Below are positions 17,701 through 47,545 of a stretch of DNA of 64,000 nt, piece after piece. A program made the translations under genes and the position numbers. This DNA comes from Halichondria panicea (lineage: Eukaryota). Below the pieces are notes generated by a model. The model ran no database searches. It was not told the DNA's origin and was given only the letters and a program-made list of their open reading frames with translations. Location: assembly GCF_963675165.1 (NCBI RefSeq), contig NC_087384.1, positions 2,614,315 to 2,678,314 of the forward strand, written 5' to 3'. Numbering within the stretch: the stretch's first letter is position 1; every line of letters starts with the position of its first letter.

Positions 17701-20700
17701 GTGCAAAGGCCCATCCCTTGTCAGCAAATTTCTCAGCCATTTTGCCAACTTCCTTTGCATTGGAGGCACTCGCTTGATCTGTGCGTGTAAGAGTGTGGTT
17801 CTATAATGAGTGAAACGGGAGCTAGGGAGGGGGGGGGGGGGGGTTCCATGGAACCTGATATATGATATCAATTTGTCAAGATAAAAAGGGTGTAATAAAA
17901 GTCATACAGTCCCTTCTGTGTTATATATTTTATTTACAAGGTCACGTAGCCTTGATGCATGATTGGTAAGGGTTGTAGTGATGTAAAAACACAATGTCCT
18001 ATTTATATGAGTATCCTTGTGTTGTATAACTATAATTATGTACATATGAAATAAGGTAACTGGCCTCGGACTTGTCCTGTATACTTCCTACAACACTCGG
18101 TCTCATTATATATGTACCGTTCTGGTGGATATAATAACATGTACATGTACAATAATTATGTATAATTATATATATACCGATACTATGTACAGTGGAACCT
18201 CGATTATCCGGACACCTTGGTTCCAGAGGGAGGCCGAATAACTGAATATGCCGGATAACCGGATAATCGAACAGATAAACCACGCCTTAATCTACCCACT
18301 TAATTAATAAACAGCAGTGCCATGTACATGGTTGTTTGCGCATGATATGTGCAGAACAGAAGCAGGCCTATCTCCATGTTAACAGCTGCAATGCGCATGC
18401 GCATTAAGGGATACGCCCATTTTCAAATAGAAAATTACCAAGCCGGATAATCTAAGTTCCGGATAACGGAGGGCCGGATAATCGAGGTTCTTTTTGTAAT
18501 CAAACTACAAGTATAAATATATAGGCTGATATACATGAAGAATGTTCTCCAGGCTATATAATTATGTATCGACTTACTCTGTAGGGATCTCTTGTACACG
18601 CCCTGCAAAATGGCCGCCACTCTGAAGAAGGTGAAGGCGAGATAAAAATTCCAGTTATCCTTAAGGTCAGCCACCTGTCTGCAGTCAGAGTACGTTTTGA
18701 TCATCACCTCCTCACTTGGGATGCCTAGAGCAGCTATGTCCACACCGTTCAGTCCTGGAGAAGGAATGAAGGCTGAACACAATAGTTCACTGTTTATTCT
18801 TAGGGCAGAAACAAACTGTTTCAATTATTAAGTGGCACGGTTAAACTATGCTACATGTATGAAGACATAATTATTAGAGGGTAACCTGCTTGTACAAGGT
18901 GACCATACAAACTTAACACGTAATCTCTAGCTTATGGTTGAAAGGGATGTAATCCTACGCTTAGACCAAATCAAAAATCTGAGAATAGCATAAAACCATG
19001 CACAGAGGATCTAATGTCTGCTATATAATTATACTCTATACTCCACTTGATTCCGTTATAACTTAATTACACATAGTTACATGACCAGACCATGAACTGT
19101 ACCCTTGAGGTGTGGTTGGTCATGATCGAGGTGGTAGGTCATGCAAATGTAGGCGAGGTCTGATATTGGGTCACCGAGGGTGGACAGTTCCCAGTCCAGC
19201 ACCGCTAGCACTGTAGGACGATCCCTCGCAAAGATCAAGTTGTCCAATCTGCATGCATGCATGGGTAGGGATAAATATTCAGGATGACATATCACACTAG
19301 ATGCAACCTCTCTCAAACGACTCTACACACCTGAAGTCGCCATGTACGACAGTGGTGGTGTGGTTGCTAGGAGCTCTGCTGGGCAACCAGTCCACTAGTC
19401 TATCCATGGAAGGGATGGAGTGGGTTTTGCTCGCCTCGTACTGTCGTGACCAGCGCTCTGTCTGTCTCTGGATGTAGTTACCTGCACATTATGATTTATG
19501 AGCATAATATTAATACACTATAAAATATTGCCATAAACTAGGCATGTCCAGAAGAGGTACTTACACTATTAATGGCTGTGTAGAATGAGAAGAACATTAA
19601 TGAACAGGTTATAAGTTGCATGTGATCACATTCTCAAACCCCACCAAATTTGTACTTGTATGTACCTACATGAACATGTAGTAGTGTAAGCTAGCTAGCA
19701 TACCAGTTTTTCCGAAATCGGATAAATTGGCTTTCTGGATGTCCACAGAGTGAATGGCTGCCAGTACCTTGGCTGCTGACCGATAGATCACTTCTCTCTC
19801 ACATGGGTGGAGTCCTGGGAGGGTGGGGTCTTTGAACACTCGTCCGTCCGTATAGCCCATTATGTAGAATGGGGTACCAACCACGCTAGAGTGAATAAGT
19901 TGTACACATAAGCATCAGCGTGAGCATTAACCAGTTTTACCAAGGATGGGCTGAAAAGTCGATCGAAAATGTTCTGTTAGCCTGCGCTTTCTGAAGTCTA
20001 GAATTGGCAGCTGCAGCTGAAAGCTTGCTCAGACTATTGTGAACACACACTCTAAGCAGCTATAATACTAAAAAAAACTAAAGAGGGTCACTTCCAATGC
20101 ATAAAAAAGCCCCCATACCGTACTGTTGACAAAAGGTAGTGCGGCTCTCGACAGAGTTACGCATTTACAGTACGTACAATTCTACATTTGCATGCAGGGA
20201 ATGGTGCAAAAGAGTGCATGGGAAAGTATCGATCGTGATTGTTGCCAAAAAAAGGATGCCGAAAGTTCAGAGTCTATATAATGCCGCAAATTCATGAAAC
20301 AGTGCAGCTTTGCAGTTTTTTTTATGACTTTTGCAACCAATATAGCTAGCGTTCTAGTGCAGAGCTAACTACTGAGTAGAATAGCTAAAGCTATATTAAC
20401 AGATTTTACTGCACACGAGTCTGATTCGAAGTAAGCAAACCTAGCCATACCTCGAGAACGAAGCAATATTTTGCAAATCCACAAATTGCAATTCATGACT
20501 AGAAGCCTCACATTGAGCAGCTGTAGCAGTTGCTAAGTTTTCCCCGTTTTTTTCCTATTCTCCCCCAATTTTTCTCGCTTTCTTCCCCACTATTTCCCCC
20601 TATTAATATACATGTATTATGAAGGTTGTCCCAACTTATCCTGTATTCACTCTCTAGTCTTACCTGTCTGTCTCACAGAGTGAGTGCAGCGGGGGCACAG

Positions 20701-23170
20701 GAACACCAGCCTCCTGCATTGCCGTCATCACTTGGTACTCTCTCTCCACCGCATGGGCAGATGGGAGGAGCTTCCCAGGCTGCATACAAAGGAGGGGAGG
20801 GTGAGACAGTGAGTGGCTACATGTATATATTAACCCGAGGCGCGCCACGGCGTCATGGTTATAGTAGTCGATCGGTCAGTCTGTTTGTCTGTCTGTGTAT
20901 ACATTCAGAGTCTACTTACCCACTGTGTTTGTATCATGGATAGATGTACACGCGGCTTTGATTCAAAGCTGTAGATTCACTAAGCCTCAAATTAACGCCG
21001 AGGGTTTACACTTCATTTTAATTCGGCGCGGCCATTATTCGAAAACAAGCCCGCACAATTACTGATACGGGATTAATTGCTACACTCTCCAGTCACTAAT
21101 GCACATCATATACGATCAGCCTAATATCACTGCCTATAAGCTTTACAGAATACCGTACTTATAACGTACTGGTTTCTTTCTGAGCACAAGCTCCCTCCCT
21201 TTATAACTGATATAGTAGGTGGGGTTAGACTGTCCGTGCTTAAACTGCAGTACCCTCATGGGACCCTCCACCTCATTGCCAAACACCTGGTCCAGGTAGG
21301 TGGCTAATTGGAGGTCAGGGAGGGCGTGCTTTGAGCTGACCTCACGGGTGCTGGAGATGTGCGCTGCAGGAGATTAGGGTATACATCATGTCAGTGGTGT
21401 TCAGGGTGTGAGTTGTAGGGATTAAGGTATCAAGTCAGTGGTGTTCCTAGTTGGGCGTGGCCCGACCACCTTCTGTTAAAAAAGGAGGTCGGTTTGCAAG
21501 CTTATCTTGGCTGCATTATGTAACAACACTAGCTGCTGTGAATATTCTATTCCAAGTGGGTTTTAACCAACTTGATGACGTGGCTAAACCACAGCATAGT
21601 GCATTTCGGTTTTGCAACTAGGAAGTGTATTACCATGAAAATGCTGTAATCTGATAGGGCGCCACTATAGTGGCGGTTAAAAAAAATCCGAGATAGGCTT
21701 GCAACCCGACCTCGCCGCGTCCAACTATGGTGTTCCAGGGTATGGGGATTAATCAATTGGGTGGTGTTCAGGATTAGGACGGAAGTTGTGCTGTTTAGGA
21801 ATTTATGGTACCGAAGTAATACTCACAGCTAGTGTATGTAAGTCTATGCATGGTGCTTATAGTGTGAGTGGTGTGGGGTACAATGGGGAATGATAATGCA
21901 CAAGAGGAAACTTTTATGTTAGCATGTCTATAGAGACTAACTCACGAGAATAATAGCCGTCCTGAACAATAGCGTTGAGTTCCTCCATGGCAACACCTAT
22001 ATCACCCACCTGCACATAATTACAGTGTTAGAACTGACTGTATGGTCAACTGGTCATACTGATTGGACACATACAGGAATGCATGGTCATTCTAATTAAA
22101 CGTCCGGTCAATGACCGATGGCAGCGAGTAATTTCTAATATGTACTTATAAACACATGATCAGAACAAACAGACAAAAGTCAGGCTATGTAAATGTACTA
22201 ATCCACCTTGATGGTTGCCATGCCCATCTCCCGTGCAGTCTTGAGATTACCCCCCAGGTCATCCAGGAACACCGCGTCCCCGGCCCCCACCCCTAGCCTC
22301 TCTAGAGTCAGGTCAAAGATTGCTTTGTCTGGTTTCTTGAGGCCCTCAATACACGACTGTACCACCTGAGAGTAAGGATTTGTAGATTTGAACCGTTTGG
22401 TTGGACATGTTCGTGCAATACGGAAAATTGCTGAATTGCATCAAAGGTGTGTGTAGACTGGTAATGTATTCAAAGTTAAAGTAGGAGTCTAAACAACAAT
22501 TAATAGCTATACATGTACATGTACGTACCACATCTACTCCAGGAACTGACTCTTTAGGAAACACAGTATCACCATTATCCCATCGGAAATTGTTAGTCAA
22601 AATTGCAACTTTAATCCCCTTAGACTTAAGCCACTGGATACAGTTCGTAACAGCAGGATGAGGGCTGAGCTTCGTGAAATCTGATAAACACTTGATGAAC
22701 TCCTGTGTCTGTTCCAGTGTAAGTTCACCGGAATTCACTTCAACATATTCCTTTTGAAACGGTTCTGAAAATTCCTCAATCGATATCTCACCACGCTCCA
22801 TTTTACCAAATGCTCCCTGATCGCCTTTGACTTTTATCGTCTTCACAAGAGACCCCTTCTGGAGTTTGTGTTTCTCTTCAAACTTGTCGAAAATCGGCTG
22901 CGGAGAAGGTACGACTACTCCTCCCAGATCGAATATAACAGCCTTGGGTGTAGGCCATTGTAAGCGAGCAGATGTTGATGATCTCTGGCTACATGTAGCT
23001 GAAGTGTAGGAGGTTCCTGAGAGGCTTCTTACAGAGGGCCAGGGAGAACGGATTTGAGAGAGTTTGTGTGGGCACTGGAATAAGGATCCGCTACTTACTG
23101 CTCTGAGTGTTGCAGGGAGATGCAGACCTCTAGTTCTCCTGCAGAGATAAAGACATCTTCTCAGGCTCAT
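14605..23170 (-). CDS. Gene span: ACAD10/ACAD11-like protein (HAD-like hydrolase + APH/kinase-like + acyl-CoA dehydrogenase), 18 coding exons, ~1088 aa
   Basis: Ordered matches to the ACAD10 architecture: VIFDLGGVV (HAD), [10 protein letters not shown] / RLDNLIFA / [12 protein letters not shown] (APH), [12 protein letters not shown] / [16 protein letters not shown] / [24 protein letters not shown] / [29 protein letters not shown] (ACAD); all intron phases are consistent. Confidence 0.85.
14960..15037 (-). CDS. ACAD10-like exon 17 ([26 protein letters not shown])
   Basis: tacAG acceptor, GTGAGC donor; matches human [25 protein letters not shown]. Confidence 0.75.
15179..15322 (-). CDS. ACAD10-like exon 16 ([48 protein letters not shown])
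   Basis: Anchored to ORF 15167..15403; GTGGGC donor. Confidence 0.85.
15529..15783 (-). CDS. ACAD10-like exon 15 ([85 protein letters not shown])
   Basis: Anchored to ORF 15505..15810; GTGAGT donor. Confidence 0.85.
15924..16000 (-). CDS. ACAD10-like exon 14 ([26 protein letters not shown])
   Basis: Anchored to ORF 15915..16145. Confidence 0.8.
16242..16401 (-). CDS. ACAD10-like exon 13 ([53 protein letters not shown])
   Basis: Anchored to ORF 16183..16392. Confidence 0.8.
16535..16606 (-). CDS. ACAD10-like exon 12 ([24 protein letters not shown])
   Basis: Anchored to ORF 16502..16693. Confidence 0.8.
16894..17034 (-). CDS. ACAD10-like exon 11 ([47 protein letters not shown])
   Basis: ttctAG acceptor, GTACAG donor; matches human EGLWNLFLP...GAGLTNVEYAHLCELMG. 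Confidence 0.7.
17414..17778 (-). CDS. ACAD10-like exon 10 ([25 protein letters not shown]...[44 protein letters not shown]; linker + ACAD N-terminus)
   Basis: Anchored to ORF 17354..17740; GTGCAA donor. Confidence 0.8.
18190..18490. mobile_element. MITE with TIR CAGTGGAACCTCGATTATCCGG and internal CCGGATAA sub-repeats, in an ACAD10-like intron
   Basis: Left TIR 18190-18211; the right end 18474-18490 is its reverse complement; a related copy lies at 60397-60566. Confidence 0.65.
18578..18754 (-). CDS. ACAD10-like exon 9 ([59 protein letters not shown])
   Basis: Anchored to ORF 18435..18824; GTAAGT donor. Confidence 0.8.
19103..19248 (-). CDS. ACAD10-like exon 8 ([49 protein letters not shown])
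   Basis: Anchored to ORF 19077..19316; GTACAG donor. Confidence 0.8.
19331..19481 (-). CDS. ACAD10-like exon 7 ([50 protein letters not shown])
   Basis: gtgcAG acceptor, GTGTGT donor; internally consistent length, +/-2 nt. Confidence 0.65.
19704..19885 (-). CDS. ACAD10-like exon 6 ([61 protein letters not shown])
   Basis: Anchored to ORF 19666..19884. Confidence 0.8.
20290..20530 (+). repeat. Partial copy of the (CA)n-tailed repeat family inside an ACAD10-like intron
   Basis: gcaaccaatatagctagcgttctagtgcagagctaactactgagtag ... cgagaacgaagcaatattttgcaaatccacaaat. Confidence 0.6.
20664..20779 (-). CDS. ACAD10-like exon 5 ([38 protein letters not shown])
   Basis: Anchored to ORF 20660..20848; GTAAGA donor. 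Confidence 0.8.
21170..21363 (-). CDS. ACAD10-like exon 4 (...[31 protein letters not shown]-terminus)
   Basis: Matches human [28 protein letters not shown]; GTACGT donor. Confidence 0.7.
21946..22009 (-). CDS. ACAD10-like exon 3 ([21 protein letters not shown])
   Basis: tgtgcAG acceptor, GTGAGT donor; matches human VNDPETAVKELEALLG. Confidence 0.6.
22207..22365 (-). CDS. ACAD10-like exon 2 ([56 protein letters not shown] motifs III/IV)
   Basis: Acceptor and donor GTGGAT; upper end anchored by the stop of ORF 22346..23170. Confidence 0.8.
22529..23170 (-). CDS. ACAD10-like exon 1 (ATG 23170; Arg/Ser-rich presequence-like N-terminus + HAD hydrolase domain to ...[12 protein letters not shown])
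   Basis: ORF 22346..23170 frame; GTACGT donor after GAT GTG. Confidence 0.8.
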
Positions 23171-23446: not shown

Positions 23447-25922
23447 CTGAAGAAGTAAACAGCATGAAATTACTGATCACCAATATAATTATAGGTGCAC
23501 ATAACTTACTTGCACATGGAACAAATTGGAGTTGACCGGCAGAATACTGCATAGGGAGAAAGAGAGAAGTATTGCAACATCACAACACTGTAATTTAGGC
23601 CATGGCTCTATTGTGTGACGTACAACACGCCTCTATATATACATCACCCAGCCTGTACGAGAAAACTCCTACACAGTGTATTAAAAGTGGTCAACAAAAA
23701 CAAATCAAAATGCATTAGCTGCAGTGCAAATTAATGAAAAAAGTATCCATAACTCACTGGAGAGACAGACAGAGCACACAAATCCCACGTCCACTAGTTT
23801 GTGATGACAGAAGCAGGCGGCTCTGTAGTCAATCTCAACAGAGGAGGGGAGGAGGAGGTGGTCACGAGTGGACGGGTCAGGGAGAAACACCCACTGTGAG
23901 AGGTATGGGGGACGCATGTGTGGTGCTATTCAAAATAGCATGACTATAATTAAAGTGGTGTGCATGTACCGTATATAGTGCTAGATATAATTATATGCGA
24001 GCATAAAATATTTTGGCCAGGCTACAAAATGTTATGCGATTAATCTTATTTCCTCAATTAAACACCGCGATTTCAATGGGGATTGTACAGGCCTCGAATA
24101 AAGGCCAACAATTGTGCGTTACAATTTATGCGATATGACAGGCACTCGCATAAATAGCGTTTCTTTTTACGGTAAACTGATTGAGTTGGACAGGTAAATT
24201 CTATATGCAGGCGGCAGAGAATTAAAGCTACAGTAAACTTTAAAGCAAAAACAGTATAATTATACTGTTATCAGTAAATACCATTCTGAATGTGAATGCT
24301 GTGCATAACCATTATTTTGTGGGACCACGCACCTTACCTTCTAGTATCAGGTACCACACTGGCTCACCAATAAATACTGCAGCAGTCCCGAGGGCTCTGG
24401 GGTCCTGATGTACACACCCCCAGTCACGTCAGAAGCTTGTTGCAAGAACCCAGAATCCTCCCATAACACACAAGAGTCTATAGGCACTCTCTGAAAAACA
24501 GGGAACAGAGTATCATTATTTTTATAAAGTTATTAAATGAACAAAACACACGTGTGTGTTTTGTTATGTATAGCAACAGAGTCCAATCCGTGGTGTAAGA
24601 GGAAATAAATCTTCAAATTGATTATAGTCATGAATGGACACTTTTCTCAGCCTAATGCAAAATGTTGGCCACTTGATTTGGAGCAAAATCAAAAACTAAT
24701 GGCCACCTCAATGCCTACACACATTCTTTAGAGCAGCAAAAATGCAGTTCATGGTGTGGATGTACTGAGGGGCACTGTCAGAGGAGGAGCGGACCACCAG
24801 GATACGAGAGTTGAGTGTCCTACCTATTAACAGCTCTCTGTTCTGTCGCTGAATGTCTGAACAATTAGTTAGGGACATTACAGGTTCAAGAATATTACAA
24901 GCCCCCACTCCCTTGCAATCGACCATCTAGAGGAACTTAAGAAAACTAATAGATTAGTTCAACCACTTCATGCAATCATGACATTTGCATAGGCGACAAA
25001 GTATAACAAACTCTGGATTTACTATACACACACGTACTACACTTTGTCTCAGATTATAAGGCCATGGTATATATAACTCAGGATACAACACAGTGACTTG
25101 CTGATGGCCCCAGAGAGTAGAGTACTCGTAGACACAGTGTCTGCTGGTGCTGACGAGAGTTTGGCCACAACCTGGTGCACCTGGTCACATAGTATAGAGT
25201 TCATGTGCACTAAAGGCTCATATTTGCCAGTGTTCTGTAGTCTAGGGTCGTCTGCTGAGAGTTCAGAGGTCATGGATGAAGGGTACACCATTTGACTAGG
25301 AGAGTGCGTGATATGGGGTCAGCATGATTATGAGGAGTGAAGTTGTGCCTCCGTAATTGAGCATGTGACAAAAGTTGACAATTATAGGTACGCGTGTACG
25401 TAAGCAAATGCAGATTACAATGTGAGCGTGTATAATTATAGTAATGTACTAACTACCTTCCAGCTTGGTGACTGATGCACACCGCTACACTGTGTCCGTG
25501 GCAAGTGAGTACGTACGAGTTTATAAATGTTGTCACTGCATCCAGACACTGCTTCACGGACAGCTGCATGGAAGGACACAAACGAGTGTTAGTAGTGAAG
25601 CTGAGGCAAAACGTACCTAGCTAGCTACAGATAATGAGGAAACTATTTCCTTTCCCAGGCTATCTGCGATAATTATCATCTCTTTGATAGTGAGAAAAAC
25701 AGAGTCTATAGTGTTGGTCGTATTCAACCTTAGCTAGCTTCATACATTTTTTCTTTTGCTCTTTCACAGTACTTTGTACAACTTAAAAACAATCCAAGAC
25801 AGTTGCCTTACCGCTTGTGTGTGTTCCTTAGAGGAGGCGCTGATTTCGTAGGCATTGCACAAGTCCACAATCACTACCAGCAGATGCTCCACATCTCCTC
25901 CACTCTCCTCTACATTAGCCAT
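23368..25922 (-). CDS. GTF2H3: Gene span: general transcription factor IIH subunit 3 (TFIIH p34/Tfb4), multi-exon
   Basis: N-terminus MANVEESGGDVEHLLVVIVDLCNAYE; LSVKQCLDAVTTFINSYVLTCHGHSVAVCISHQAG; SRILVVRSSSDSAPQYIHTMNCIFAALK; C-terminal zinc motif DYRAACFCHHKLVDVGFVCSVCLS ... IFCRSTPICSMC; basic tail KSKKKKNHKHKGT. Confidence 0.8.
25457..25563 (-). CDS. GTF2H3: GTF2H3 exon 2 (LSVKQCLDAVTTFINSYVLTCHGHSVAVCISHQAG)
   Basis: ccatgcAG acceptor, GTAGTT donor. Confidence 0.6.
25812..25922 (-). CDS. GTF2H3: GTF2H3 exon 1 (ATG is the complement of 25920-25922; 37 codons; GTAAGG donor)
   Basis: MANVEESGGDVEHLLVVIVDLCNAYEISASSKEHTQA. Confidence 0.7.
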
Positions 25923-26142
25923 CTCTTTGGTCCATGTAGACTGGAGGTTTAAACTAAGGAAAGAAAGAAGAAAATTAGCTAATTATTATATTAAAAGCAT
26001 GATCCTTTACCTTGTGTAACAAAAACAGAAAAAAACCGTGTAACATGGTGTAATCAAAACAGAAAAATGAGATCACTAAATGCACAATACACAGATATCG
26101 AGTTGCTATATTATTATCACTAGAGAGTAAGCTGTCTTTGCA

Positions 26143-27609
26143 TTATTCACAGGCCAACTTGGAGTCGAAGCTAGACAACACAATAGAAAACGCCTGCAGG
26201 GCACACATGGGAAAGCTGTAATCGAGAGTGAATGTGTCCTCTGAAATACGACCAAACTGCATCACAACATAATCCTCATGTGAACTGTGCACCAATTGAA
26301 AGTTCTTCACAGATGCTTGAGTAACTCGGCCATGAAAGTTGAGCACATACGCCTGAGTGTCATCAGACCACACTGGCTGCTTGTTATGCACCTCCAGCAG
26401 ATCTGACATGTGATTGTTTCGCCACCTCTCCAGTAGTGTTTCATTTTCTACTTTTGGAGTGACTGGAATCCTCTTGTGAACATGATTCATCGCTGGAATA
26501 ATGACAGTCATTTTCCGAGGACCTTTGAAGCCAAGAACATTTGTCTCGTAATGAACAGCAGCAAGTTCCTCACGAATGATTTTCTGGCCAGGTTTAACTT
26601 TTCTTCTTTGTGGGTTAGCACCTCCATTGAAAACTGTGAATGATGTGCCGACAAAATTAGAGCGAACTTTCCCAATGAAATTCTCACCATCTCTCGAAAG
26701 GTCAGTAGGATCGGTTGATACCAAATAGTTGGAAGAACGACTCTTCTTTCGTTTGCGTGCTGCTAGTAGGAATATCTTTTTTCCACTGTCTTCTCTTTCC
26801 ATGTGTAGGAAGTAGGTGGGGTAAAGATACCTTTCCATGCCTTTCTGATCCCTGGTCACTCTGCATTTTATTGTTACCCCCTCAGGAGCTGGTTGGTGCA
26901 CAAAGTCGTGTAAATCTTCGATTTCTCCACCTCCAGGTGTTAACGTGAGAGCAAGACTTTGCATTTGCATTCCTGTTGCTTGCGACTCTACAGCTGCAGT
27001 TGGCACAACTTTTGCAGCTTCTTCTGTGGACACGGCGGAACTTGGGGAGGCTTCTTTTGCACCAGGGTTGCCCAGTACCTCAATCTCATCATCACTATCT
27101 TCAGATTCGTAATCTACAAATGCGGTTAACCCCATAGAGTCCAGTTTTGATTGAGCTGTTTGTCCGTTAGATGATGAAGACTCATTTTCTTTGCGTTCGA
27201 TAAAAGACCCCTGCTCAGAAAACTTAGTGTTCACGGTGATAGGAGTCGGGAATGTATGATTTCCGTTAGGTTGTATAGTCTTTAGCACCTCAGAGGATTT
27301 AATCGACTCTAAATGACCTTGTGCTGTTGTGTTTCCTGTTTCTATGAGGGGCGGTGTCAGGGGGGGTGAAATGAGTGGAGTCTCGCTACTTGCACTCGGT
27401 CTCCGTGAAATCATGTCACTATCGCTGGAGGCAGTTGGAATATCAGAAGTGGGACGACTGGTCGGTCGAAGGTATTTTGAGGATAAAGGACGAGCACGTC
27501 CACTGATAGCCATGACCATTCCTGATTGCCTTTGTCGCTGTTTCTTCTTTTCTTCCATGAGAATTCGCTGTTTGTCCAGCATCTGCTGTCGCTTGGCTTC
27601 ACCATCCAT
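26143..27609 (-). CDS. Tubby-like protein (TUB/TULP family), single uninterrupted 488-codon ORF
   Basis: ORF 26143..27609; C-terminal tubby domain nearly identical to vertebrate TUB ([59 protein letters not shown] ... [37 protein letters not shown]). Confidence 0.85.
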
Positions 27610-28228
27610 TTTGACAGACAGACTAGGGCCTGGAGGGATATTAGGCTATATATATCACAGTGACATCATATTTTCACTAGATCTAGCTCTAGTAGCTTTG
27701 CTAAACCAAAATCTATACGTACGTACGTACCTCTGTTCGATCCACCACGTCCACTGCGATAAGATGTCTTGTTTCTTTTTCTCACCTGGATCGGCTAGTT
27801 GCTAACGAAATATGCGTGGGTGCAATGACACTATCATGCGAGGTCCACCCCCTATTCAAGCGTGCTGTTCCACAAGCAGTGCAGTGCGCATGTTCACTAC
27901 AAGATTATTTTCTGTCGACCCACCCCTTTACCAGCTGAGTCACTGTATTAGTATCAGCCCTTGCTAGCTAGCTTGCTGTGTTACAAGCTCTCCTGTCTCC
28001 CTGTGCAAAAATCGTGTAAGTCTTAGCCCACCTATCAGGTAGATCTAGCTGTCTAGTTACTGTAACTATAACCAAAGGAAGTTATAAGTGTGTGGTTACC
28101 TCCTATTAATACATGTAGTAAATCTACCTGTGCAACCACCCATAGGCCATATCACAACTCATGTACGTACTATATCTTTGCATACCTACATGAAACTTTA
28201 GACTGTCTCCTAACAACAAGAGGTCAAG
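27610..28228. promoter_or_regulatory. Putative bidirectional promoter between Tubby-like (-) and MVP (+)
   Basis: ~620 bp between the divergent start codons; inference only. Confidence 0.3.
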
Positions 28229-28375
28229 ATGAGTCGAGGTGGCGTCTCCAGAGATGAGTCCAAGAGCATCTACCGCATCCCCCCTTACTACTATGTCCAC
28301 GTTTTGGACCAGAACACCAACACCACCAAGATGGAGGTTGGCCCTAAGACCTACATTCGTCAGGACAACGAAAAG
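28229..28375 (+). CDS. MVP: MVP exon 1
   Basis: ATG 28229; ORF 28229..28432; GTGATA donor after AAG. Confidence 0.8.
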
Positions 28376-30731
28376 GTGATATTTACATACGTGGATGCTT
28401 TCAGTCTGAATGTGCCATTTAATAGTATGTGATTACGATTAACATAAAAAATCAACTAAAATTATTAGGCTGCTTTAATGTGTTTATGGGTGGCCCTTGG
28501 TATTATAATTCTGTAGCCTATGTACAGTGCATTTGCACTAAAGCACACGTTTATTGTGTGTTGATGATATCTTATCTGTCGTCCTTCTCTTCCCCAGGTG
28601 ATTCTTGGCCCTGAGAAGATGATTGTTGTACCTCCTCGCCACTACTGCATTGTGGAAAACCCGGCAGTCAAGGACAAGGACGGTCAGGTGGTCTTTGACA
28701 CTCACGGACAAGTGAGTGCTGTATTTAATTTTAGGTTGAGGTTTCCTGTTGTTGTCTTATGTATTTTGCAAATACAACTGTTCTCAGTAGTTTCATTTCA
28801 AGTGTACATTAGAAAAGATCTGTGTGTTTGTAGTCCATAGTAGTCTTATTTAGGCTCAAAATACACTCTCCTATTTTTGCCCCACAGGTGAAGCTTCGTC
28901 ATGCCGACCAGGAGATTCGTCTGGCCCAGGATCCGTTCCCCCTTTACCCTGGGGAGATACTCAAGCAGGTGGTGGCGCCTCTCAAGGTCGTTCAGGCCAA
29001 CACGGCTCTCAGGATCAGATCTATTCTTGACTTTGAGGAGGAAGACGGCACAAAGAGAGTGGCTGGGGACGAGTGGTTGTTTGAGGGACCAGGTGAGGGT
29101 GTGAGTGTTGAGTTGTAGTCAGTTAGTACCACTATGTGTAACTTGAGTCTAAGGTGGTCTGTGTTACATTAGCCTCGATTCCCGGCCGCTTGAACAAGGC
29201 GGCCTGGTATACCTTGTATGCGCATGCGCAAAATAATTGACAACAATTTCATCATACAAATTGTAAAAAAACGGACAAAGTTACAAAAGGGAATAATACG
29301 TATGACAATGTGACCACAATGGCAGCTTTCAGAGACACTAATCAAAGTAGAATAATTATGCTGCAGCAGTGTTGCTTCTTCTAGCTCTGTTTATCAAAGA
29401 GACAGTTCAAGAAAGCCTCCCAGACAGCTAGAGCTGCCAGCTAGGAAGAGTGGTGGACTCTTTAATACATCAGTAGATCTTGAGTGAATAACTTCCTGAG
29501 TGTCGAGTTAAAGCTTATTAAAAGCTTTTAGGAGTAATCATTAGCTTCTTTATCTTCAGCAATGACTTCTTGTCGAACATAAAGGCAAGATTTAGTAGCA
29601 GAACACTTGCCTGGTCTATATTACCACAGCCTCATCAGGGGACCCACAGGAACACATCATGCCTTTCCTATAACATCTGTAGCCTTACAGTGTAGGGTGT
29701 CGTTAAGTAGAGACTTGGCTTGATACAATAAAGGGCGTAAGAACTCAGTCACAATACTTCTATGTAACGGACTGTAAAATCAGAATACAAATAGTATACG
29801 GTTTATTTTACTGACAGTATCCACAAATACACGGATTACCCCCTTTTTGGGGTAATGTACACGCATGCGCATACAAGGTATACCAGGCCGCCTTGTTCAA
29901 GCGGCCGGGAATCGAGGCTAGTGTTACATGTACATGTCTAAACATAATTATGTCAATTAAAATACTCTAATTTGATGTTTATGCTCCCCTATTCGTTGCA
30001 GGAACCTACCTGCCTAGGAAAGAGGTGGTCGTTGAGGAGACTATTCGAGCCACGATCATCCGTCCCAACCAAGCCATTCGTATTCGTTCCCGGAAGGAAA
30101 CGCTTGATCGTGACGGTACCCCACGTGTAACTGGGGAGGAGTGGATGGTGCGAAAGGTGGGGGCCTATCTACCGGGTGCCTACGAGGAGGTGGTGGACAC
30201 TGTGGACGCGTATGTGCTTACAGATAAGGTACGTGCACAATTTGTACCTTTTAGGGGCATTGTCTTTATTCTTTTGTGGGGTGCTTTTTAGTGCATGCAC
30301 ATGTATATACTAAAGTGTAGTTGACCTTGTGTGCTGTGAATATACTCTAGTGTAATGAATATTGGTATAGTCTGTATATGGAATGTTAGACAATCACACC
30401 CACTTGCCTATTGTGTGTACAATACAGGATCACGTATCCTCTCACTATCACTTACAATCACTTAGTGCATGTGACCATCACCTAAAAATCGTGTCGCCAA
30501 GCAGCAGCATACAGTACATCTGCATTAGGAACCTTACTTTTAGTAACCAGTATTTATAGTCTATTAAATACTGAGGTGTTTAAACGAAACTGATGTTTGA
30601 GCCCCCCCCCTCGTTGAATCACAGGCAGAAATATGGTTGTCTAGTGTAAATGGGGTATATCTTGTACAGCTATGATTTGTTTTACCTTCACATGCACATG
30701 CTGACCACCTGTGAATGCATGAACTCCTGCA

Positions 30732-37062: not shown

Positions 37063-38143
37063 CTACAAAGAAAATACAGCACAATTATGAGACACACCAA
37101 CTACAGTAAGTGCGACGTGTATACTTGTTTACTTAACAGGGGAGTTTAAACCCACATGAGTACGAGCCCTTTAGTTATAATTATATGAACGCAACGCACC
37201 AGAGTATGAAACATGCCCTTACCTGAGCATCATCCAGACAGGCAAGAGGTTGGCCCTTGGGAAGTGTTTCTGCTGCAGAGAAACAACACCAGGTGCTGCA
37301 GACCTAAATGGGGTCTCCTTCGGGCTTTCCCTCTTGACAAGTCCTGTGACAATGTCAGTTTGAATGGAGTCGGCTAGACATAGCTCTAGCTGCTTTTTTT
37401 CGGATGTTAGAATCGTAGTTCCTTGTTTGAGGTTTTGGTTTTCGGCTTGTAATTGGCGATTTTGTCGCTCTAGAATGGCCACTTTCTTCTCCAGGTCGTC
37501 AATGTAGCTCTTCTTTCTGTCTCTGGCATTCTGAGCAGCAACTCGATTCATCATTTTCCTACAGAAATAACACAATAAGTAGCAGTGTTTAATATCGGAC
37601 CAAATACCAGCCGTATGGTGGTTATTATTTTCTTATTGTAGAGCATCATCCAAAAATTAAAGCGCAATAATTATAGTTCTATGTCACCAATCTGAGCAGT
37701 GCGAATATGATACGAAAACTGACAACGAAAATTATCCTCTATAAAGGTCATGGCTTACAAATCGAGGGAGGTTATTTTCGAATACTAAACCACAAAGAAA
37801 TAATTATAGTCAAAGAAACCGACCTTTTCTCTCTCTTTTCTTTTTCTGTCAACTCTGTACTTCCAGTTCTCTTTCTTTTCCTAGAGTTTGCATCAGGTGA
37901 TCCAACCTCACTCTCCTCGCTACCGCTCAGTGCTGAGTAGAGACTGTCCTTTGACGGGGAGCATGGTGGACTCTGCTCACTTTGAACAGTAACAATATCT
38001 TGCTTCTGAGGAGACACGACGGCACATGGGACCTTCAAGCTCTTGCTCAACAACTGAAGACCGAGTAGAAGTAGTTTCTTCTTGTCGGGACCGGGAGCCA
38101 TCGGCCTCGGTTGTAGTGTGGCGAGTGGCTTGGCTGTTTCCAT
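36667..38143 (-). CDS. XBP1: Gene span: X-box binding protein 1 (bZIP, IRE1 target), 3 conventional exons plus an unconventional 23-nt intron
   Basis: bZIP signature RKMMNRVAAQNARDRKKSYIDDLEKKVAILERQNRQLQAENQNLK (compare XBP1 RKLKNRVAAQTARDRKK); twin CUG|CAGC sites 23 nt apart. Confidence 0.85.
37223..37558 (-). CDS. XBP1: XBP1 exon 2 (bZIP). The unspliced frame stops at 37219 (XBP1u); after the 23-nt intron is removed the frame continues to the GTAAGG donor at 37222
   Basis: ORF 37219..37575 anchor; ttctgtAG acceptor. Confidence 0.8.
37276..37298 (-). other. XBP1: Unconventional IRE1-type XBP1 intron (23 nt; transcript sense cagcacctggtgttgtttctctg), flanked by tCUG|CAGCa and tCUG|CAGCa
   Basis: Both cleavage sites fit CNG|CNGC. 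Removing the 23 nt shifts the frame by +1, so the bZIP exon reads ...SAAETLPKGQPLACLDDAQ into the conventional donor and the 132-codon C-terminal exon. Confidence 0.8.
37824..38143 (-). CDS. XBP1: XBP1 exon 1 (ATG is the complement of 38141-38143)
   Basis: ORF 37772..38143; ends ...KRKRTGSTELTEKEKREK + ag; GTCGGT donor. Confidence 0.75.
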
Positions 38144-38494
38144 GTCTTTTTAGCACCACTCGAGCGAAAAGTTTTAGATTATCACGTAGCTAGCTATCAC
38201 TTCATCTTTTTTATGATCTTTCCGAATGACACGTACGCCAATGAAACAACTAGAAGATGGAAGATGATGAAACCTGGAACTGCGGTATTATTAGCCATAA
38301 TTAGGTCACAATCAACCATTACATCACTGTGCAAAAGATGTGGGTCAATGTGATTGGCTGGGCTGAATGTGGGTTATGTCCACCCACATTCATTGATAGT
38401 TACTGGTCATTGTGGTCAAACACAAACCACAAGATGATGTCATACAACTAATTAAAATTCCACTAATCCCCAAGCTAGCTAGCAGCTAGACACA
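38144..38494. promoter_or_regulatory. Putative bidirectional promoter between XBP1 (-) and the D-glutamate cyclase-like gene (+)
   Basis: 350 bp between the divergent ATGs; inference only. Confidence 0.3.
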
Positions 38495-38805
38495 ATGTCA
38501 TCCATAATGCAAGTAGATCTACCAGAGGATACTTTTCGACCTTACATTTCACCCAAACGTCCAGATGACTCCTTCAATATGAAGCCGTTAGAAGCAAGAG
38601 CACTGTTCCGAACGAATGACTACACAGGTTTCACCTCTGGTTTCTGCGATGGATACACTCAGTTCAACATCATTATTATTTCTAGTGAATTTGCTGATGA
38701 TTTTGAGACATTTTGCAGCCAAAACTCAGGTGCATTTCCTGTATTATATCGTAGTAAACCAGGTGAAGTTGGAGCCCCTCCTATTGCTGAGGACTCTAAC
38801 GTCAG
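38495..38805 (+). CDS. D-glutamate cyclase-like exon 1 (ATG 38495)
   Basis: ORF 38495..38818; GTATAT donor. Confidence 0.65.
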
Positions 38806-40450
38806 GTATATCATTTAAAAAATACAACAGTCACACATTGTTCAATATACACATGCTTTTTTGTTTTTTTTCTGCAGGACTGATCTCCCTTGTTATACAA
38901 TCCGGAAGAATGGAATCAGAGTAGCTGAAGCTCCAGATTTGAGCCGATTTACACCAGTTTGGGACTACTTAGTGACTTTCTACATTGGATGCAGCACCAC
39001 ATTTGATTTCGCCTTAATAAAGAATGGTGTTGATGTTCCTAATGTCCTTGACATTCCTGGCTATAAAACTAATGTTTGCTGTTCGTCCGTTGGTCCTTTT
39101 CAAGGAGTAAAAATGACGGTTTCAATGCGTACCATAGCAAAACATCAGCTAGAAAAAGCTTTCATGATATCAAATCAATACCCAGACTACCATGGAGCCC
39201 CTATTCACATAGGTGATCCTACTCGAATTGGAATAAGTGGTGTAACTGTACCTGATGGATATGTAGCTACATTTTGGGCTTGTGGAATGACAGTTGAAGA
39301 TGTAATTTTGATAGCAAGTAAGTCTGTTGTTATGTGCTCTCGTCCTATTACTCAGAGCTTAGTGCTGTCACATGATCTCCAGCTTATAAAAGTAGTCACA
39401 TGTCCATGCTTTAAACTAAAGCTAGAGATCATAATTATGATCATTATATAAATACTTTAAATTAGCCAAAATCACGTCTTTTAATGCTGGTGCATTCGGA
39501 TGGACTCTTGGTTACGTTAACCTCGAGACCAGCCCTAGCACACAGATTGAAACACTTAATCTTGGCTAGGTGTGTTAACTCACATAATGTGTTAATGTGA
39601 CGATCATTTTTCATAATTTACAGAACCAGAGCTTGCATTCTCTCATTATCCTGGTGCGATGTTTATTGGTGACATTAAAAGAGAACCAACCAGTTTAGGT
39701 GATGCTGTGAAGATTATTAAACTCAACAAAGCCGGCTGTGAGTACTTTGCTTCTGTTATAAATCAAAACTCAATAGCTGTATTTGAAGGCATTCAGAGAG
39801 CCTTGGGGATAAAGCCTGTCAATGTACAAGTCAATTCATCCCCTCTTTTGGAAGTAACCCTTAAACTATCTCATGCTAACAAGGTGGTATTAGCATACAT
39901 TCCAAAACATTCTTGTCAACATATTGATGTGCTAGGTATAATGGTCTTTTGTCAGGCTTTGCTCATTCTCAGGAAAGGTGTCACTCTTGTGGTCAAAAAA
40001 GCAGATAAAAACCTTTTTGATATTGCTATTCAACACATGGTTGAGACATTCCATGTTGATACTCCCACCATTGTAACAGTATCCCAGAATGTGACCATAG
40101 AAGATAACATTCCTGTGTTTGATTGCCTACTAATGACATCTCAGAATTGCTATGATGCTGTCAAAGGAATACTTGATATTGCTCAAAAAAACTCTCACAC
40201 CAGTGTCATAACACTCAATAACTATCATTGCAAAGCCACTGAAATTGAGCCAGACATAATTGTGACTGAAAACTTAGTGAACAGTGCGTATGCTCTAGCA
40301 GGAGGATTGTATGTCGCCTCTACCTCTCCTTACCACTGGAGATACAAGAACTATTCCATCAATTCACATCAACAACCTCAATTCAGCGTGGATGATTTCA
40401 TACCTACCAATGATCAGGTTAGTGTTTGTTTTAAATTATGTCATGCATAA
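38495..40450 (+). CDS. Gene span: D-glutamate cyclase-like protein (DUF1445/UPF0317 putative hydro-lyase family) with a C-terminal extra domain; at least 3 exons
   Basis: ATFWACGMTVEDV and HIGDPTRIGI motifs typical of DUF1445; exons 38495-38805, 38878-39317, 39624-40417 (or read-through to the stop at 40450); possible small exon 4 at 40464-40607. Confidence 0.6.
38878..39317 (+). CDS. D-glutamate cyclase-like exon 2 (DUF1445 core)
   Basis: ORF 38861..39451 frame; tctgcAG acceptor, GTAAGT donor. Confidence 0.65.
39624..40417 (+). CDS. D-glutamate cyclase-like exon 3 (second, DUF4392-like domain)
   Basis: ORF 39659..40450 frame; tttacAG acceptor; optional GTTAGT donor at 40418. Confidence 0.6.
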
Positions 40451-41118
40451 TTTTGTCTCACAGTCACAATCACTATGGAAGATGATACTGCCAAAAGGAA
40501 GCTCTGGCTCAGAAGAATTACCTAACTTGTGTCCTGTATCTGAACTCCGTAGTCTATTGAACTGTAGTCTATTGAACTGTAGTCTATCAATGTATGCTGA
40601 TTTGTGATATTTTGGGGGGGGGGTACGTTGGTTGGTTATGCTGGCACAGTTTTTGGTGAGAATTATGGTGGGTATACTCATCAATTGGCATGATAATAAA
40701 ATTATGAGACTAAAAGTTAATTTTAGTGCAGAGTCATTAAGTATAATTATGATCACAAATAAGACTTATAAGGGTATGGAGTGGGTGGTTGTGGGTTTTT
40801 TTATACATTTTCACAAAAAGAGACCCGCTTGTTAGGGGGCCACTAAAAGAGAAATACCGGAAGTGAAATTAAATAATGGGCGTGGCAATAGGAGTGGCGC
40901 AGCGGGGTCTAATTTGCTAGCGGGTTCTGTACCAAATAAATAATGCAGCCATCAACAGCCAGAGCCACAGCACTGCAGTGTGTGTACTTTGTCTATGCAA
41001 GTGAGTGCCAACACTGCTGCTGCTGATATCACACCAAGTGTCTAGATATGGATGACAAAAATATGAGAGTCTTTCAAAGTCTGACCGAGCCTGCATGGTG
41101 CTGTAATCACTGAACTGA

Positions 41119-42470: not shown

Positions 42471-43144
42471 GTATCATGTATTTAGTAGAGTATTCTAGAA
42501 TGTTCTGGTAGATTGTTTGTACTATGCTAGTTGTTGTTAGATAGATCTAGAACCTTCTAGGAACTGTTTTGGTGTTTGTATAAATACTCTTGTGTTGTTA
42601 CAATGATGAGTCTTTATGTCTAAAAGTCAAACAACAACAAATCTACACGATACTACAATTACTACACCATTTTCAAATACCACAGACGGTCAGAGACCAA
42701 CAGCATCAATAACAATCTGTACAGATACATTTCTCTTTTAGTGTGAACCTGCAGACCTCACACTAAAAGAGAAATTTACACTTAGGGTGTTTTGCATGTT
42801 CAGGCACTGTGTTACACACATCTACATCATTGTTGCACTGTTTGAAAGTACCACAGAGACCAGCAGCAACAGTAACTCTAAAGAGAAAAACTACAATTCT
42901 TTTTTAGTGTGAGGTCCCCGCGGTTTACACTATAGGTAGCTTTACAGGTTTGTTGCTGTCTCGGTATACTTTCAAACAGTGTAGTGATGTATATAGACCC
43001 ATGCATGTCATATATATTAAGTATATACATGTATATATAAATTATAAGCTCATGGAAAAACCAGTGACACTATGCACTCCCAGTTTTTTTTGCAGCCTGA
43101 GCTACATCTACATCTAGTGATCTAGCTCATGATTGATCCATATA

Positions 43145-45668: not shown

Positions 45669-45787
45669 TTAACCCGAGGCGCGTGGGCGGCCACGGGTTA
45701 TAGTAGTCGTTTGGTTTGTTTGTTTGTTTGTTTGTTTGTTAACCCGAGGCGCGTGGGCGGCCACGGGTTATAGTAGTCGTTTGGTTT
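45669..45787. repeat. 2 x 59-bp tandem unit AACCCGAGGCGCGTGGGCGGCCACGGGTTATAGTAGTCGTTTGGTTTG(TTTG)n; a related copy lies at 20823-20893
   Basis: Direct comparison of the three copies. Confidence 0.7.
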
Positions 45788-45805
45788 GTTTGTTTGTTTG
45801 TTTGT

Positions 45806-47200: not shown

Positions 47201-47545
47201 TGTAGTTTACACCCTTACCTATTAGTGTAGGCTATTGTAGTTTACACCCTTATGTTACTATTGTAGTTTACACCCTTAAGCTATTAGTGTAGTTTACACC
47301 CCATGCTATTGTAGTTTACACCCTATATGCTATGATATTTACACTCCCTTTTGTTTACTCCCCAAACCAGGTCTTATTTAAACCCTAGTACATGGTGTAT
47401 ACACCCCTGTTTTAACACAGCATGAATGTACCCAATGCTATTTGTTTGCATAGCAACATTGTATGGTGGTTTTGTGGTAATGCAGTGAATGATTTAGTAT
47501 TTTGCAAGGTCTATGCAAACAGCTGTACTGACAAATGCCAGAGAA
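47191..47545. repeat. Right arm of the internal inverted repeat (tandem ~23-bp CTATTGTAGTTTACACCCTTA units, then the unique segment)
   Basis: See the left arm at 43145-43860. Confidence 0.65.

What the first reader, a model, noticed from the sequence alone, without database searches (positions are those of the whole stretch)
26143..27609. Intronless Tubby-like gene in an otherwise intron-dense region (possible functional retrogene), divergent from MVP
A 488-codon uninterrupted ORF encodes a full Tubby-family protein with a strongly conserved C-terminal tubby domain. Every neighbouring gene has many introns (ACAD10-like 18 exons, MVP 14, GTF2H3 at least 5), and vertebrate TUB/TULP genes have about 12. 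A single-exon structure suggests retroposition, yet the ORF is intact. It sits 620 bp head-to-head with MVP, which is compatible with a shared bidirectional promoter.
Basis: partly seen in the sequence, partly recalled or inferred. Interest (0 to 1): 0.5.

Follow-up and report, generated by a model that had tools for sequence, protein, structure and literature searches.

The report
Anciently intronless sponge Tubby gene
This is the ordinary Tubby/TULP3-type cilia-trafficking gene of the sponge Halichondria panicea; its single-exon structure is real but is shared by every related demosponge sampled, so it is an old lineage-wide trait and not a recent retrogene, and in most of these sponges it shares a short conserved promoter region with the vault gene MVP.

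Summary
Window 26143-27609 (minus strand) is an intact 488-codon ORF for a full-length Tubby-family protein, identical to RefSeq XP_064391617.1 of the demosponge Halichondria panicea. Its start codon lies 619 nt from the divergent, multi-exon MVP gene.

I fetched Tubby loci from ten other sponge-like genomes, and all encode the whole protein in one uninterrupted ORF. One of them is a named tedaniid sponge of another order. Their proteins are 49-72% identical to this one. Ten further relatives on contigs of at least 23 kb appear to do the same. Nine of the ten fetched relatives keep the MVP-Tubby head-to-head pairing (282-818 nt apart).

Synonymous sites are saturated and dN/dS is far below 1. 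There is no poly(A) remnant, no convincing target-site duplication and no close paralog.

The bidirectional-promoter idea gains support. All ten MVP-paired species, including this window, show the same motif order in the spacer, including two species checked only after the motifs were defined.

The intron-free state probably reflects an ancient complete intron loss through a reverse-transcribed copy. That polarity is inferred, not shown. Other long single-ORF genes, such as Zwilch, lie in the same window. Interest is low to moderate.

The parts
26143..27609 (-). Complete coding sequence (488 codons plus TAA) of the Tubby/TULP3-type protein, in a single exon
   Evidence: ORF list; Pfam Tub 1.8e-91; identical to RefSeq XP_064391617.1; in-frame stop 39 nt upstream
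27526..27597 (-). N-terminal basic helix (aa 5-28, [24 protein letters not shown]). It corresponds to the region of TULP3 that binds the IFT-A complex; that role is recalled from the literature, not tested here
   Evidence: Conserved from sponges to Capitella and vertebrate TULP3 in alignment A2: R7, Q8 and Q14 nearly invariant, R15 and L17 invariant
26161..26898 (-). C-terminal tubby domain (aa 238-483)
   Evidence: Pfam PF01167 covers profile 2-256/256; about 70% identical to solved TUB domains 1s31, 1c8z and 1i7e; dN/dS 0.02-0.04 where dS is estimable
26662..26670 (-). Codons for K314-V-R316 in 'GKVRSN'. These align with K330/R332 of mouse Tubby, the phosphoinositide-binding pair; that role is recalled from the literature
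   Evidence: K314 and R316 are invariant in all 16 sequences of A2; position mapping from the 1c8z alignment
27610..28228 (.). 619-nt spacer between the divergent Tubby and MVP start codons; candidate shared (bidirectional) promoter
   Evidence: Head-to-head arrangement with 282-818 nt spacers in 10 species; conserved blocks among the three closest species; shared 7-mers exceed all 100 shuffles
27814..27820 (-). CCCACGC element, always on the Tubby-sense strand, 91-343 nt upstream of the Tubby ATG
   Evidence: Present in 10 of 10 MVP-paired species in the same orientation and order; absent upstream of the unpaired L011 gene
27886..27892 (-). CATGCGC element (core of the GCGCATGCGC palindrome; NRF1-like by recollection), 45-104 nt on the MVP side of CCCACGC
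   Evidence: Present in 10 of 10 paired species; the 8-mer GCATGCGC is strongly over-represented in the window, 10 found vs 0.66 expected, so it is a generic regulatory word of this genome
27934..27942 (-). TGACTCAGC element (bZIP/AP-1/MARE-like by recollection) inside an invariant AGTGACTCAGCTGG block
   Evidence: Invariant in H. panicea, L002 and L003; also in L012 and, on the other strand, in the tedaniid L010; only 2 copies in the 64-kb window
28229..28375 (+). MVP (major vault protein) coding exon 1, 49 codons, divergent from Tubby
   Evidence: Read from the sequence; tblastn finds the orthologous exon in all paired loci at 85-98% identity; Vault and MVP_shoulder Pfam hits on downstream fragments
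25812..25922 (-). First coding exon of GTF2H3/Tfb4 on the same strand, starting 220 nt after the Tubby stop; it limits the Tubby 3' UTR to about 200 nt or implies overlap
   Evidence: Read from the sequence; exons 1+2 give a weak Tfb4 hit, E=7.6e-4, below Pfam's cut-off; Tfb4 Pfam hits directly downstream of Tubby in L007 and L010

Best explanation
The ORF is the demosponge ortholog of the TUB/TULP3 group of Tubby proteins, and its single-coding-exon structure is an old trait of the lineage, not a recent insertion. Shown: the whole protein is encoded without interruption in this window and in ten other sponge-like genomes that I fetched as DNA. These include a tedaniid (order Poecilosclerida), whereas Halichondria belongs to Suberitida. 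Ten further relatives on contigs of at least 23 kb are inferred to be the same. Shown: in ten species including this one, the gene sits head-to-head with MVP, 282-818 nt between start codons. The spacer carries the same ordered motifs, [TGACTCAGC] - CATGCGC - 45-104 nt - CCCACGC on the Tubby strand, flanked by the same neighbours (Zwilch, bZIP, GTF2H3). Shown: strong purifying selection, and invariance of the residues that align with the phosphoinositide-binding pair and of the N-terminal helix. Inferred: the protein works like TULP3/TUB. Its C-terminal barrel would bind PI(4,5)P2 membranes and its N-terminal helix would bind IFT-A, delivering membrane proteins into cilia or flagella such as those of choanocytes. 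Inferred: Tubby and MVP are transcribed from one compact bidirectional promoter built from generic promoter words of this genome. In L007 only 282 nt separate the start codons, so the two core promoters must abut or overlap. Inferred: the ancestral gene had introns, and all were removed at once through a reverse-transcribed mRNA copy before the sampled demosponges radiated. This happened either by in-situ recombination with cDNA or by retroposition followed by loss of the parent.
For: ORF and family. Species identity and matching RefSeq CDS. Uninterrupted ORFs of 502-583 aa at DNA level in L002-L007, L010, L011, L012 and L014, each running from the conserved N-terminal RQQKLDKQR..KKKQRQ motif to FDSKLACE-stop; in-frame stops 9-96 nt upstream were checked in the window and L002-L007 and L010. 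L010 is a tedaniid sponge metagenome (PMC8518922). 21 cluster representatives on contigs of at least 23 kb fall in one clade with Halichondria, the tedaniid and Geodia. MVP pairing and spacer lengths. Motif conservation: two 7-mers in 8 of 8 spacers, whereas the best-shared 7-mer in 100 shuffles never exceeded 6 of 8; same order and strand in all; confirmed in two held-out species; invariant blocks in alignment A1. Selection: tubby-domain dN/dS 0.02-0.04 where estimable, dS saturated in most pairs. Functional residues invariant. A bilaterian comparator, Capitella, has 11 coding exons over 8.1 kb, and the same intron positions recur in many animal-type metagenome loci. The metazoan ancestor is inferred to have been very intron-rich (PMC5560861).
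Against: No transcript data were available, so introns in the UTRs, the transcription start sites and actual co-expression with MVP are untested. The polarity is not demonstrated for this gene: I could not examine a verified non-bilaterian outgroup or another sponge class, and the metagenome loci that share Capitella's intron positions look bilaterian. In the Geodia-like branch (L011) the gene is intronless but not next to MVP and lacks the motifs, so the pairing is not universal and its ancestral state is unknown. Most relatives are unnamed host contigs in holobiont assemblies; their sponge identity rests on clustering with three named sponges in a neighbour-joining tree without support values. 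The motif words are generic in this genome, so they show a conserved promoter layout, not Tubby-specific regulation. No RFX X-box was found, although one might be expected for a ciliary gene.
Confidence: 0.85

Rival explanations
1. Recent, lineage-specific functional retrogene. A processed Tubby mRNA was reverse-transcribed and inserted next to MVP in the Halichondria lineage, while an intron-bearing parental gene persists or was lost only recently.
For: The coding region has no introns while three neighbours have many. Bilaterian orthologs have about 10 introns. Landing beside an existing promoter is a known route by which retrocopies become expressed (recollection). One 30-nt direct repeat flanks the ORF at 26095-26124 and 27652-27681.
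Against: The same intronless gene sits at the same place, with the same neighbours, in nine other species whose Tubby proteins are only 49-72% identical and whose synonymous sites are saturated. There is no A-rich tract within 400 nt of the stop in any of the eight species checked. The flanking repeat matches at only 21 of 30 positions, about what chance gives in 2.4 kb of this composition (my estimate), and could not survive at that level over such divergence. The only sequences above 90% identity are allelic variants with 1-2 substitutions, all 488-aa ORFs. No second Halichondria-named Tubby appears among the top hits.
Confidence: 0.03
2. Ancient orphan retrogene. Early in demosponge evolution a processed Tubby copy landed head-to-head with MVP, captured its promoter, and replaced the intron-bearing parent, which was then lost. 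The arrangement has been kept ever since.
For: All introns are absent at once, which fits an origin from a spliced mRNA. The gene lies within 0.3-0.8 kb of another gene's start, in a spacer made of generic promoter words. The Tubby locus differs between the Geodia-like branch and the rest, so at least one relocation occurred. 'Orphan retrogenes' that replaced their parents are described in other genomes (PMC3548309; title and abstract seen).
Against: The L011 gene is also intronless, so the relocation does not coincide with the intron loss. Relocation by ordinary rearrangement explains the difference equally well. No scars can survive to test the idea. Zwilch in the same neighbourhood is also a single ORF, which suggests whole-gene intron loss is not rare in these genomes and does not require relocation.
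Confidence: 0.2
3. Primitively intronless. The Tubby gene of the animal ancestor had no introns in its coding region, and the introns seen in Capitella and other bilaterians were gained later.
For: No verified outgroup with introns at homologous positions was examined here. All metagenome loci that share the Capitella positions look bilaterian.
Against: The metazoan ancestor is reconstructed as the most intron-dense eukaryotic ancestor (PMC5560861). At least six intron positions in the tubby domain are shared among diverse animal-type loci, which indicates old introns. Some non-sponge loci have independently lost introns within the domain (L025-L032, L044-L052), so loss is frequent in this family.
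Confidence: 0.12
4. Not truly a single-exon gene. The ORF is the last, large exon of a gene whose 5' coding or non-coding exons lie upstream, or a 3' UTR intron exists.
For: AG dinucleotides lie between the upstream in-frame stop (-39) and the ATG. A canonical-looking 57-nt GT...AG segment lies at 25954-26010, between the Tubby stop and the GTF2H3 ATG. No transcript data were available.
Against: The conserved N-terminal helix begins within 5-40 residues of the first Met in every species, and what precedes it is short and not conserved. In-frame stops lie only 9 nt upstream in L007 and L010. The RefSeq protein model equals the ORF exactly. Spacers of 282-440 nt in several species leave little room for an extra exon. 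The 57-nt segment is better read as a 5' UTR intron of GTF2H3.
Confidence: 0.1

Closest known systems
Vertebrate TULP3 and TUB (Tubby family, Pfam PF01167; structures 1c8z, 1i7e, 1s31, 8fh3)
   Same: Same two-part architecture: a short basic N-terminal helix, a disordered linker and a C-terminal tubby domain of about 260 aa. The domain is about 65-70% identical. The K/R pair that aligns with the phosphoinositide-binding residues, the RKRKKS stretch and the FDSKLACE C-terminus are invariant. The sponge gene predates the vertebrate TUB/TULP1/2/3 duplications (tree).
   Different: The coding region has no introns, against about 12 exons in vertebrates (recollection) and 11 in Capitella. The linker is unrelated in sequence, and the Pfam Tub_N domain (PF16322) recorded for the vertebrate hits is not recorded for this protein or for nearly all of the sponge-like hits. 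The genomic neighbours differ.
Orphan retrogenes (retrocopies that replaced their intron-containing parent; PMC3548309)
   Same: An intronless, functional gene, with no close paralog detected, whose orthologs in other phyla are intron-rich.
   Different: None of the diagnostic scars (poly(A), TSD) is present. The synteny break that would reveal a retroposition is not seen within the MVP-paired clade. In-situ loss through cDNA recombination gives the same picture.
Conserved bidirectional (head-to-head) promoter gene pairs
   Same: Divergent orientation with under 1 kb between the genes. The arrangement is kept across deep divergence. The spacer contains a GCGCATGCGC-type palindrome, which I recall as an NRF1-type site typical of bidirectional promoters.
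   Different: An MVP-Tubby pair is not a pair I know from other animals: Capitella has no MVP within 10 kb of its Tubby gene, and the human genes are on different chromosomes (recollection). Start sites and co-expression are untested. The pairing is absent in one sponge branch.

Membership tests
Tubby family (Pfam PF01167; TUB/TULP1-3 type) | C-terminal tubby domain of about 260 aa matching the family profile end to end | tested here: met
   E=1.8e-91, 306.8 bits against a cut-off of 27, profile 2-256/256; E about 1e-120 to solved TUB domains
Tubby family (Pfam PF01167; TUB/TULP1-3 type) | Conserved phosphoinositide-binding Lys/Arg pair (mouse Tubby K330/R332; role recalled from the literature) | tested here: met
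   K314 and R316 are invariant in A2; they align with the GKLRSN motif of 1c8z. Binding itself was not tested
Tubby family (Pfam PF01167; TUB/TULP1-3 type) | N-terminal helix conserved with the IFT-A-binding region of TULP3 | tested here: met
   RQQ.LDKQR.L.E.KKKQR aligns with Amia and Sigmodon TULP3 and with Capitella. The interaction with IFT-A is not testable here
Tubby family (Pfam PF01167; TUB/TULP1-3 type) | Beta-barrel fold around a central helix | not tested
   No structure prediction was run. About 70% identity to solved structures makes the fold a safe inference
Processed retrogene | Lacks the introns present in its source gene | tested here: inconclusive
   There are no introns in the CDS and the bilaterian ortholog has 10, but no source gene within sponges is known
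Processed retrogene | Intron-containing parental paralog in the same genome | tested here: inconclusive
   No second Halichondria Tubby appears among the best 120 hits, and the near-identical sequences are alleles. The genome itself could not be searched, so a distant paralog is not excluded
Processed retrogene | Remnant poly(A) tract 3' of the copy | tested here: not met
   No A-run of 5 or more within about 390 nt of the stop (the first one lies inside the GTF2H3 intron), and none adjacent to the stop in the seven other species checked
Processed retrogene | Flanking target-site duplication | tested here: not met
   The only flanking repeat matches at 21 of 30 positions, which is chance level
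Processed retrogene | New genomic position relative to orthologs (synteny break) | tested here: not met
   The same Zwilch-bZIP-MVP / Tubby-GTF2H3 context holds in nine other species. A different context is seen only in the deep L011 branch, where the gene is also intronless
Bidirectional-promoter gene pair | Divergent genes with start points less than about 1 kb apart | tested here: met
   ATG-to-ATG distances of 282-818 nt in 10 species. Transcription start sites are unknown
Bidirectional-promoter gene pair | Arrangement and spacer elements conserved in evolution | tested here: met
   Motif order, strand and spacing conserved in 10 of 10, including two held-out species
Bidirectional-promoter gene pair | Co-expression or a shared nucleosome-free region | not testable with these tools
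   No expression or chromatin data were available

The most novel reading that the evidence does not exclude
The only TUB/TULP3-type gene of demosponges is an ancient orphan retrogene. A processed copy landed against the MVP promoter several hundred million years ago and replaced its intron-bearing parent. Since then it has been locked to MVP by a shared, motif-conserved bidirectional promoter, which would imply co-regulation of vault particles and ciliary trafficking in sponges.
Probability: 0.15. Interest if true: 0.45.

Novelty: new member of a known kind. Interest (0 to 1): 0.25.

Why it matters
The main value is corrective. A single-exon gene among intron-rich neighbours looks like a fresh retrogene, but comparison with related genomes shows an old, stable, lineage-wide gene structure. 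That is a useful caution for scans that flag "intronless in an intron-dense region". Two modest positive results follow. First, demosponges offer a clear case of complete intron loss in a conserved ciliary gene, with Zwilch next door as a second case, which is useful for studying how and how often whole-gene intron loss happens in an otherwise intron-rich phylum. Second, the MVP-Tubby pair has a 0.3-0.8 kb spacer whose motif order has survived saturation of synonymous sites. It is a compact, ready-made candidate for dissecting promoter grammar in sponges, where few cis-regulatory elements are defined.

Tried and rejected
1. RFX X-box in the spacer, expected for a ciliary gene. Only the closely related L004/L005 pair has a reasonable match, and the window has a half-site at best. 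I rejected it as a conserved feature.
2. Target-site duplication. The D1 repeat flanks the ORF but is at chance level.
3. Polarity test with metagenome loci. Many split loci break at Capitella's intron positions, and some looked very distant (32-44% identity). That low identity was an artefact of tblastn reading through ~50-nt introns. The proteins are ordinary animal-type Tubby, probably from small bilaterians, so they are not outgroups.
4. Gene-structure look-ups for Geodia barretti (P0053) and Ptychodera flava (P0065) found no record.
5. Tracing the VSKX, WLWD, JAAUY* and JACCDP accessions to hosts in the literature returned only noise. Only JAAGOD could be traced, to a tedaniid sponge.
6. 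Literature search for tubby + sponge + intronless found nothing, and a search for Tubby gene structures outside Bilateria found only plant TLP family papers.
7. I considered treating short Logan contigs (1.5-5 kb) as evidence of intronless genes and decided against it, because they may be transcript assemblies. I counted only contigs of at least 23 kb or loci I fetched as DNA.
8. I ran no structure prediction or fold search, because about 70% identity to solved TUB domains already settles the fold.
Full report
**Observation**

The window contains exactly the ORF described: 26143..27609 on the minus strand, 488 codons, ATG to TAA.
- Residues 238-483 match the Pfam Tub family end to end (E=1.8e-91).
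- Residues 225-488 are about 70% identical to the solved C-terminal domains of human and mouse TUB (E about 1e-120), with TULP3 and TULP1 close behind.
- The protein is 100% identical over its full length to NCBI XP_064391617.1, "tubby-related protein 3-like [Halichondria panicea]".

The window is therefore demosponge DNA, and an independent annotation uses the same coding sequence. This matters for the interpretation: the comparison that counts is with other sponges and early-branching animals, not with 12-exon vertebrate TULP genes.

**Surroundings**

- The MVP start codon is at 28229 on the plus strand, 619 nt from the Tubby ATG. MVP exon 1 is 28229-28375.
- MVP is broken into at least 13 exon-like pieces across three frames up to about 36 kb.
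- On the Tubby strand, the first coding exon of GTF2H3/Tfb4 (25812-25922) starts only 220 nt after the Tubby stop.
- The fragmented ACAD10-like gene follows. Its HAD hydrolase piece is at 22346-23170, with APH and acyl-CoA dehydrogenase pieces seen in the orthologous locus L002.

The neighbours are indeed intron-rich. Tubby is not unique, however. Zwilch (56805-58358) lies almost entirely in one 517-aa ORF, and a GNAT acetyltransferase and a methyltransferase are also single ORFs.

**Is the single-exon state specific to this genome?**

It is not. The homolog search returned about 50 unnamed proteins closer to the query than any bilaterian. Most come from ENA and Logan assemblies, where genes are called as plain ORFs. 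I fetched the DNA for ten of them: L002-L007, L010, L011, L012 and L014.
- In every one the whole protein (502-583 aa) is one uninterrupted reading frame. It runs from the conserved N-terminal RQQKLDKQR..KKKQRQ helix to the FDSKLACE stop. In-frame stops 9-96 nt upstream were checked in the window and seven of these loci.
- MVP beside it is in fragments, which confirms that these are ORF calls on intron-containing genomic DNA.
- L010 comes from the assembled metagenome of a tedaniid sponge, order Poecilosclerida (accession JAAGOD; PMC8518922). Halichondria belongs to Suberitida.
- In a neighbour-joining tree all these sequences form one clade with Halichondria, the tedaniid and Geodia barretti, apart from the bilaterians. 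21 distinct cluster representatives sit on contigs of at least 23 kb.
- I did not count short Logan contigs, because they could be transcripts.

**Synteny**

Nine of the ten fetched relatives, ten species counting this window, have MVP divergent from Tubby, with 282-818 nt between the start codons.
- In the longer loci Zwilch and a small bZIP gene lie beyond MVP.
- GTF2H3, with or without the ACAD10-like gene, lies downstream.
- The exception is L011, the branch nearest Geodia. There the gene is again one ORF (579 aa) but lies between unrelated genes, with no MVP within 10 kb.

The intronless state therefore extends beyond the MVP pairing.

**Age and constraint**

- Pairwise protein identity among the MVP-paired species compared is 49-80% over the full length and 67-91% in the tubby domain. 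The deepest sponge-sponge comparisons are as divergent as sponge versus mammal.
- Synonymous sites are saturated in most pairs. Where dS can be estimated, dN/dS is 0.02-0.04 in the tubby domain and 0.12-0.28 in the N-terminal half.
- The two residues that align with the phosphoinositide-binding pair of mouse Tubby (K314/R316 here), the RKRKKS stretch and the N-terminal helix shared with TULP3 are invariant or nearly so.

This is a functional, canonical Tubby gene.

**Retroposition hallmarks**

- There is no A-rich tract after the stop, in this window or in the seven relatives checked.
- The only direct repeat flanking the ORF matches at 21 of 30 positions, which is about chance level for 2.4 kb of this composition.
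- The only sequences above 90% identity are allelic variants with one or two substitutions, all 488-aa ORFs.
- No second Halichondria-named Tubby appears among the best hits.

With synonymous sites saturated between species that share the arrangement, no scar of an original insertion could be expected to survive.

**Polarity**

- The bilaterian Capitella teleta has 11 coding exons over 8.1 kb. Its introns fall after the residues that align with sponge 231, 279, 316, 354, 387, 416 and 444, and MVP is not nearby.
- Its last exon encodes the final 44 residues. From my recollection, that matches the segment replaced in the classic mouse tubby splice mutation.
- A scan of JGI and ENA metagenome contigs found many genomic loci whose tubby domain is split at these same positions.
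- The ones that seemed very distant turned out to be ordinary animal-type genes with ~50-nt introns, so they are not outgroups.
- Other lineages have lost some or all introns within the domain (L025-L032, L044-L052).

The literature reconstructs the metazoan ancestor as the most intron-dense eukaryotic ancestor (PMC5560861). Complete loss in demosponges is therefore the more parsimonious reading, but I could not demonstrate it for this gene.

**The shared spacer**

- An unbiased k-mer comparison of eight spacers found two 7-mers, CATGCGC and CCCACGC, in all eight. In 100 dinucleotide-preserving shuffles the best-shared 7-mer never exceeded six of eight.
- In every species CCCACGC is on the Tubby-sense strand, 91-343 nt upstream of the Tubby ATG. 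CATGCGC lies 45-104 nt further towards MVP.
- The three closest species share invariant blocks: AGTGACTCAGCTGG, CATGCGC and CCCACGCA...GTTAGCAACT.
- Two species fetched afterwards (L012, L014) show the same layout.
- The L011 gene, which lacks MVP, has neither word in the 1.2 kb upstream.
- Both words are over-represented throughout the window (GCATGCGC 10 found vs 0.66 expected; CCCACGC 7 vs 2.1). They are generic regulatory words of this genome, not Tubby-specific signals.
- In L007 only 282 nt separate the two start codons, so the two core promoters must abut or overlap.

Start sites and co-expression remain untested. No conserved RFX X-box was found.

**Conclusion**

The gene is the demosponge ortholog of the TUB/TULP3 group. 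By inference it acts as a membrane-to-IFT-A adaptor for ciliary trafficking.

The origin of the intronless state is most likely a one-step intron loss through a reverse-transcribed mRNA, before the sampled demosponges diverged. I cannot decide between in-situ cDNA recombination and an ancient retroposition followed by loss of the parent.

I found no paper describing this gene structure in sponges. It is a new example of a known kind of event, not a new kind of thing. The conserved MVP-Tubby promoter module is a small but concrete by-product.

Noticed in passing
window 56805-58358 (+); also L007 814-2772 and L010 1193-3103: Zwilch (RZZ kinetochore subunit, Pfam 4.2e-41) is almost entirely one ORF of 517 aa here, and a single ORF of 636-652 aa in two other sponges. 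By recollection the human gene has many exons. This is a second apparently intronless conserved gene in the same neighbourhood.
   Followed up: partly
window ~37600-56800, including 41119-41808 (+): In four other sponges Zwilch lies about 1 kb beyond the bZIP gene next to MVP. In H. panicea about 19 kb is interposed, including an ORF with a retroelement integrase zinc-binding domain (Integrase_H2C2, 3.5e-14). This suggests a lineage-specific insertion or rearrangement.
   Followed up: no
window 48397-49320 (+) and 49441-50223 (-): Two compact single-ORF enzyme genes lie tail-to-tail about 120 nt apart: a GNAT acetyltransferase (307 aa) and a SAM-dependent methyltransferase (260 aa). Their origin (ordinary small genes or horizontally acquired) was not examined.
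   Followed up: no
window 3970, 18393-18402, 29220-29229, 29863, 48154, 59336, 62157-62166: The 8-mer GCATGCGC, often as the full palindrome GCGCATGCGC, occurs 10 times against 0.66 expected (0 of 100 shuffles reach it). It looks like a genome-wide promoter or regulatory word, NRF1-like by recollection. Two copies lie inside the MVP gene body.
   Followed up: partly
window 25954-26010 (-): A canonical-looking 57-nt intron (GTAAAG...polypyrimidine...TTAG) lies between the Tubby stop and the GTF2H3 ATG and ends 31 nt before that ATG. It is probably a 5' UTR intron of GTF2H3. If so, the GTF2H3 first exon lies within about 130 nt of the Tubby stop and may overlap the Tubby 3' UTR.
   Followed up: no
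window 37219-37551 (-) and 27934-27942 (-): A small bZIP gene (bZIP_1 1.7e-10, bZIP_Maf 3.5e-05) is the conserved neighbour on the far side of MVP. The MVP-Tubby spacer carries an invariant TGACTCAGC, a bZIP/MARE-type site by recollection. This may be coincidence or local autoregulation; it was not tested.
   Followed up: no
window codon 261 of the Tubby ORF (26827-26829, -): The window allele has Tyr at residue 261 (GMERYLY). The four full-length H. panicea variants in the protein collection have Ser, as do most other sponges, so this is a private substitution of the reference haplotype in a conserved position.
   Followed up: partly
L025, L027, L028, L032 and L044-L052 (metagenome contigs): Unidentified non-sponge organisms carry the whole tubby domain, or its last 143 residues, in a single exon, while the N-terminus is encoded elsewhere. 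This shows repeated independent intron loss within the domain in this family.
   Followed up: partly
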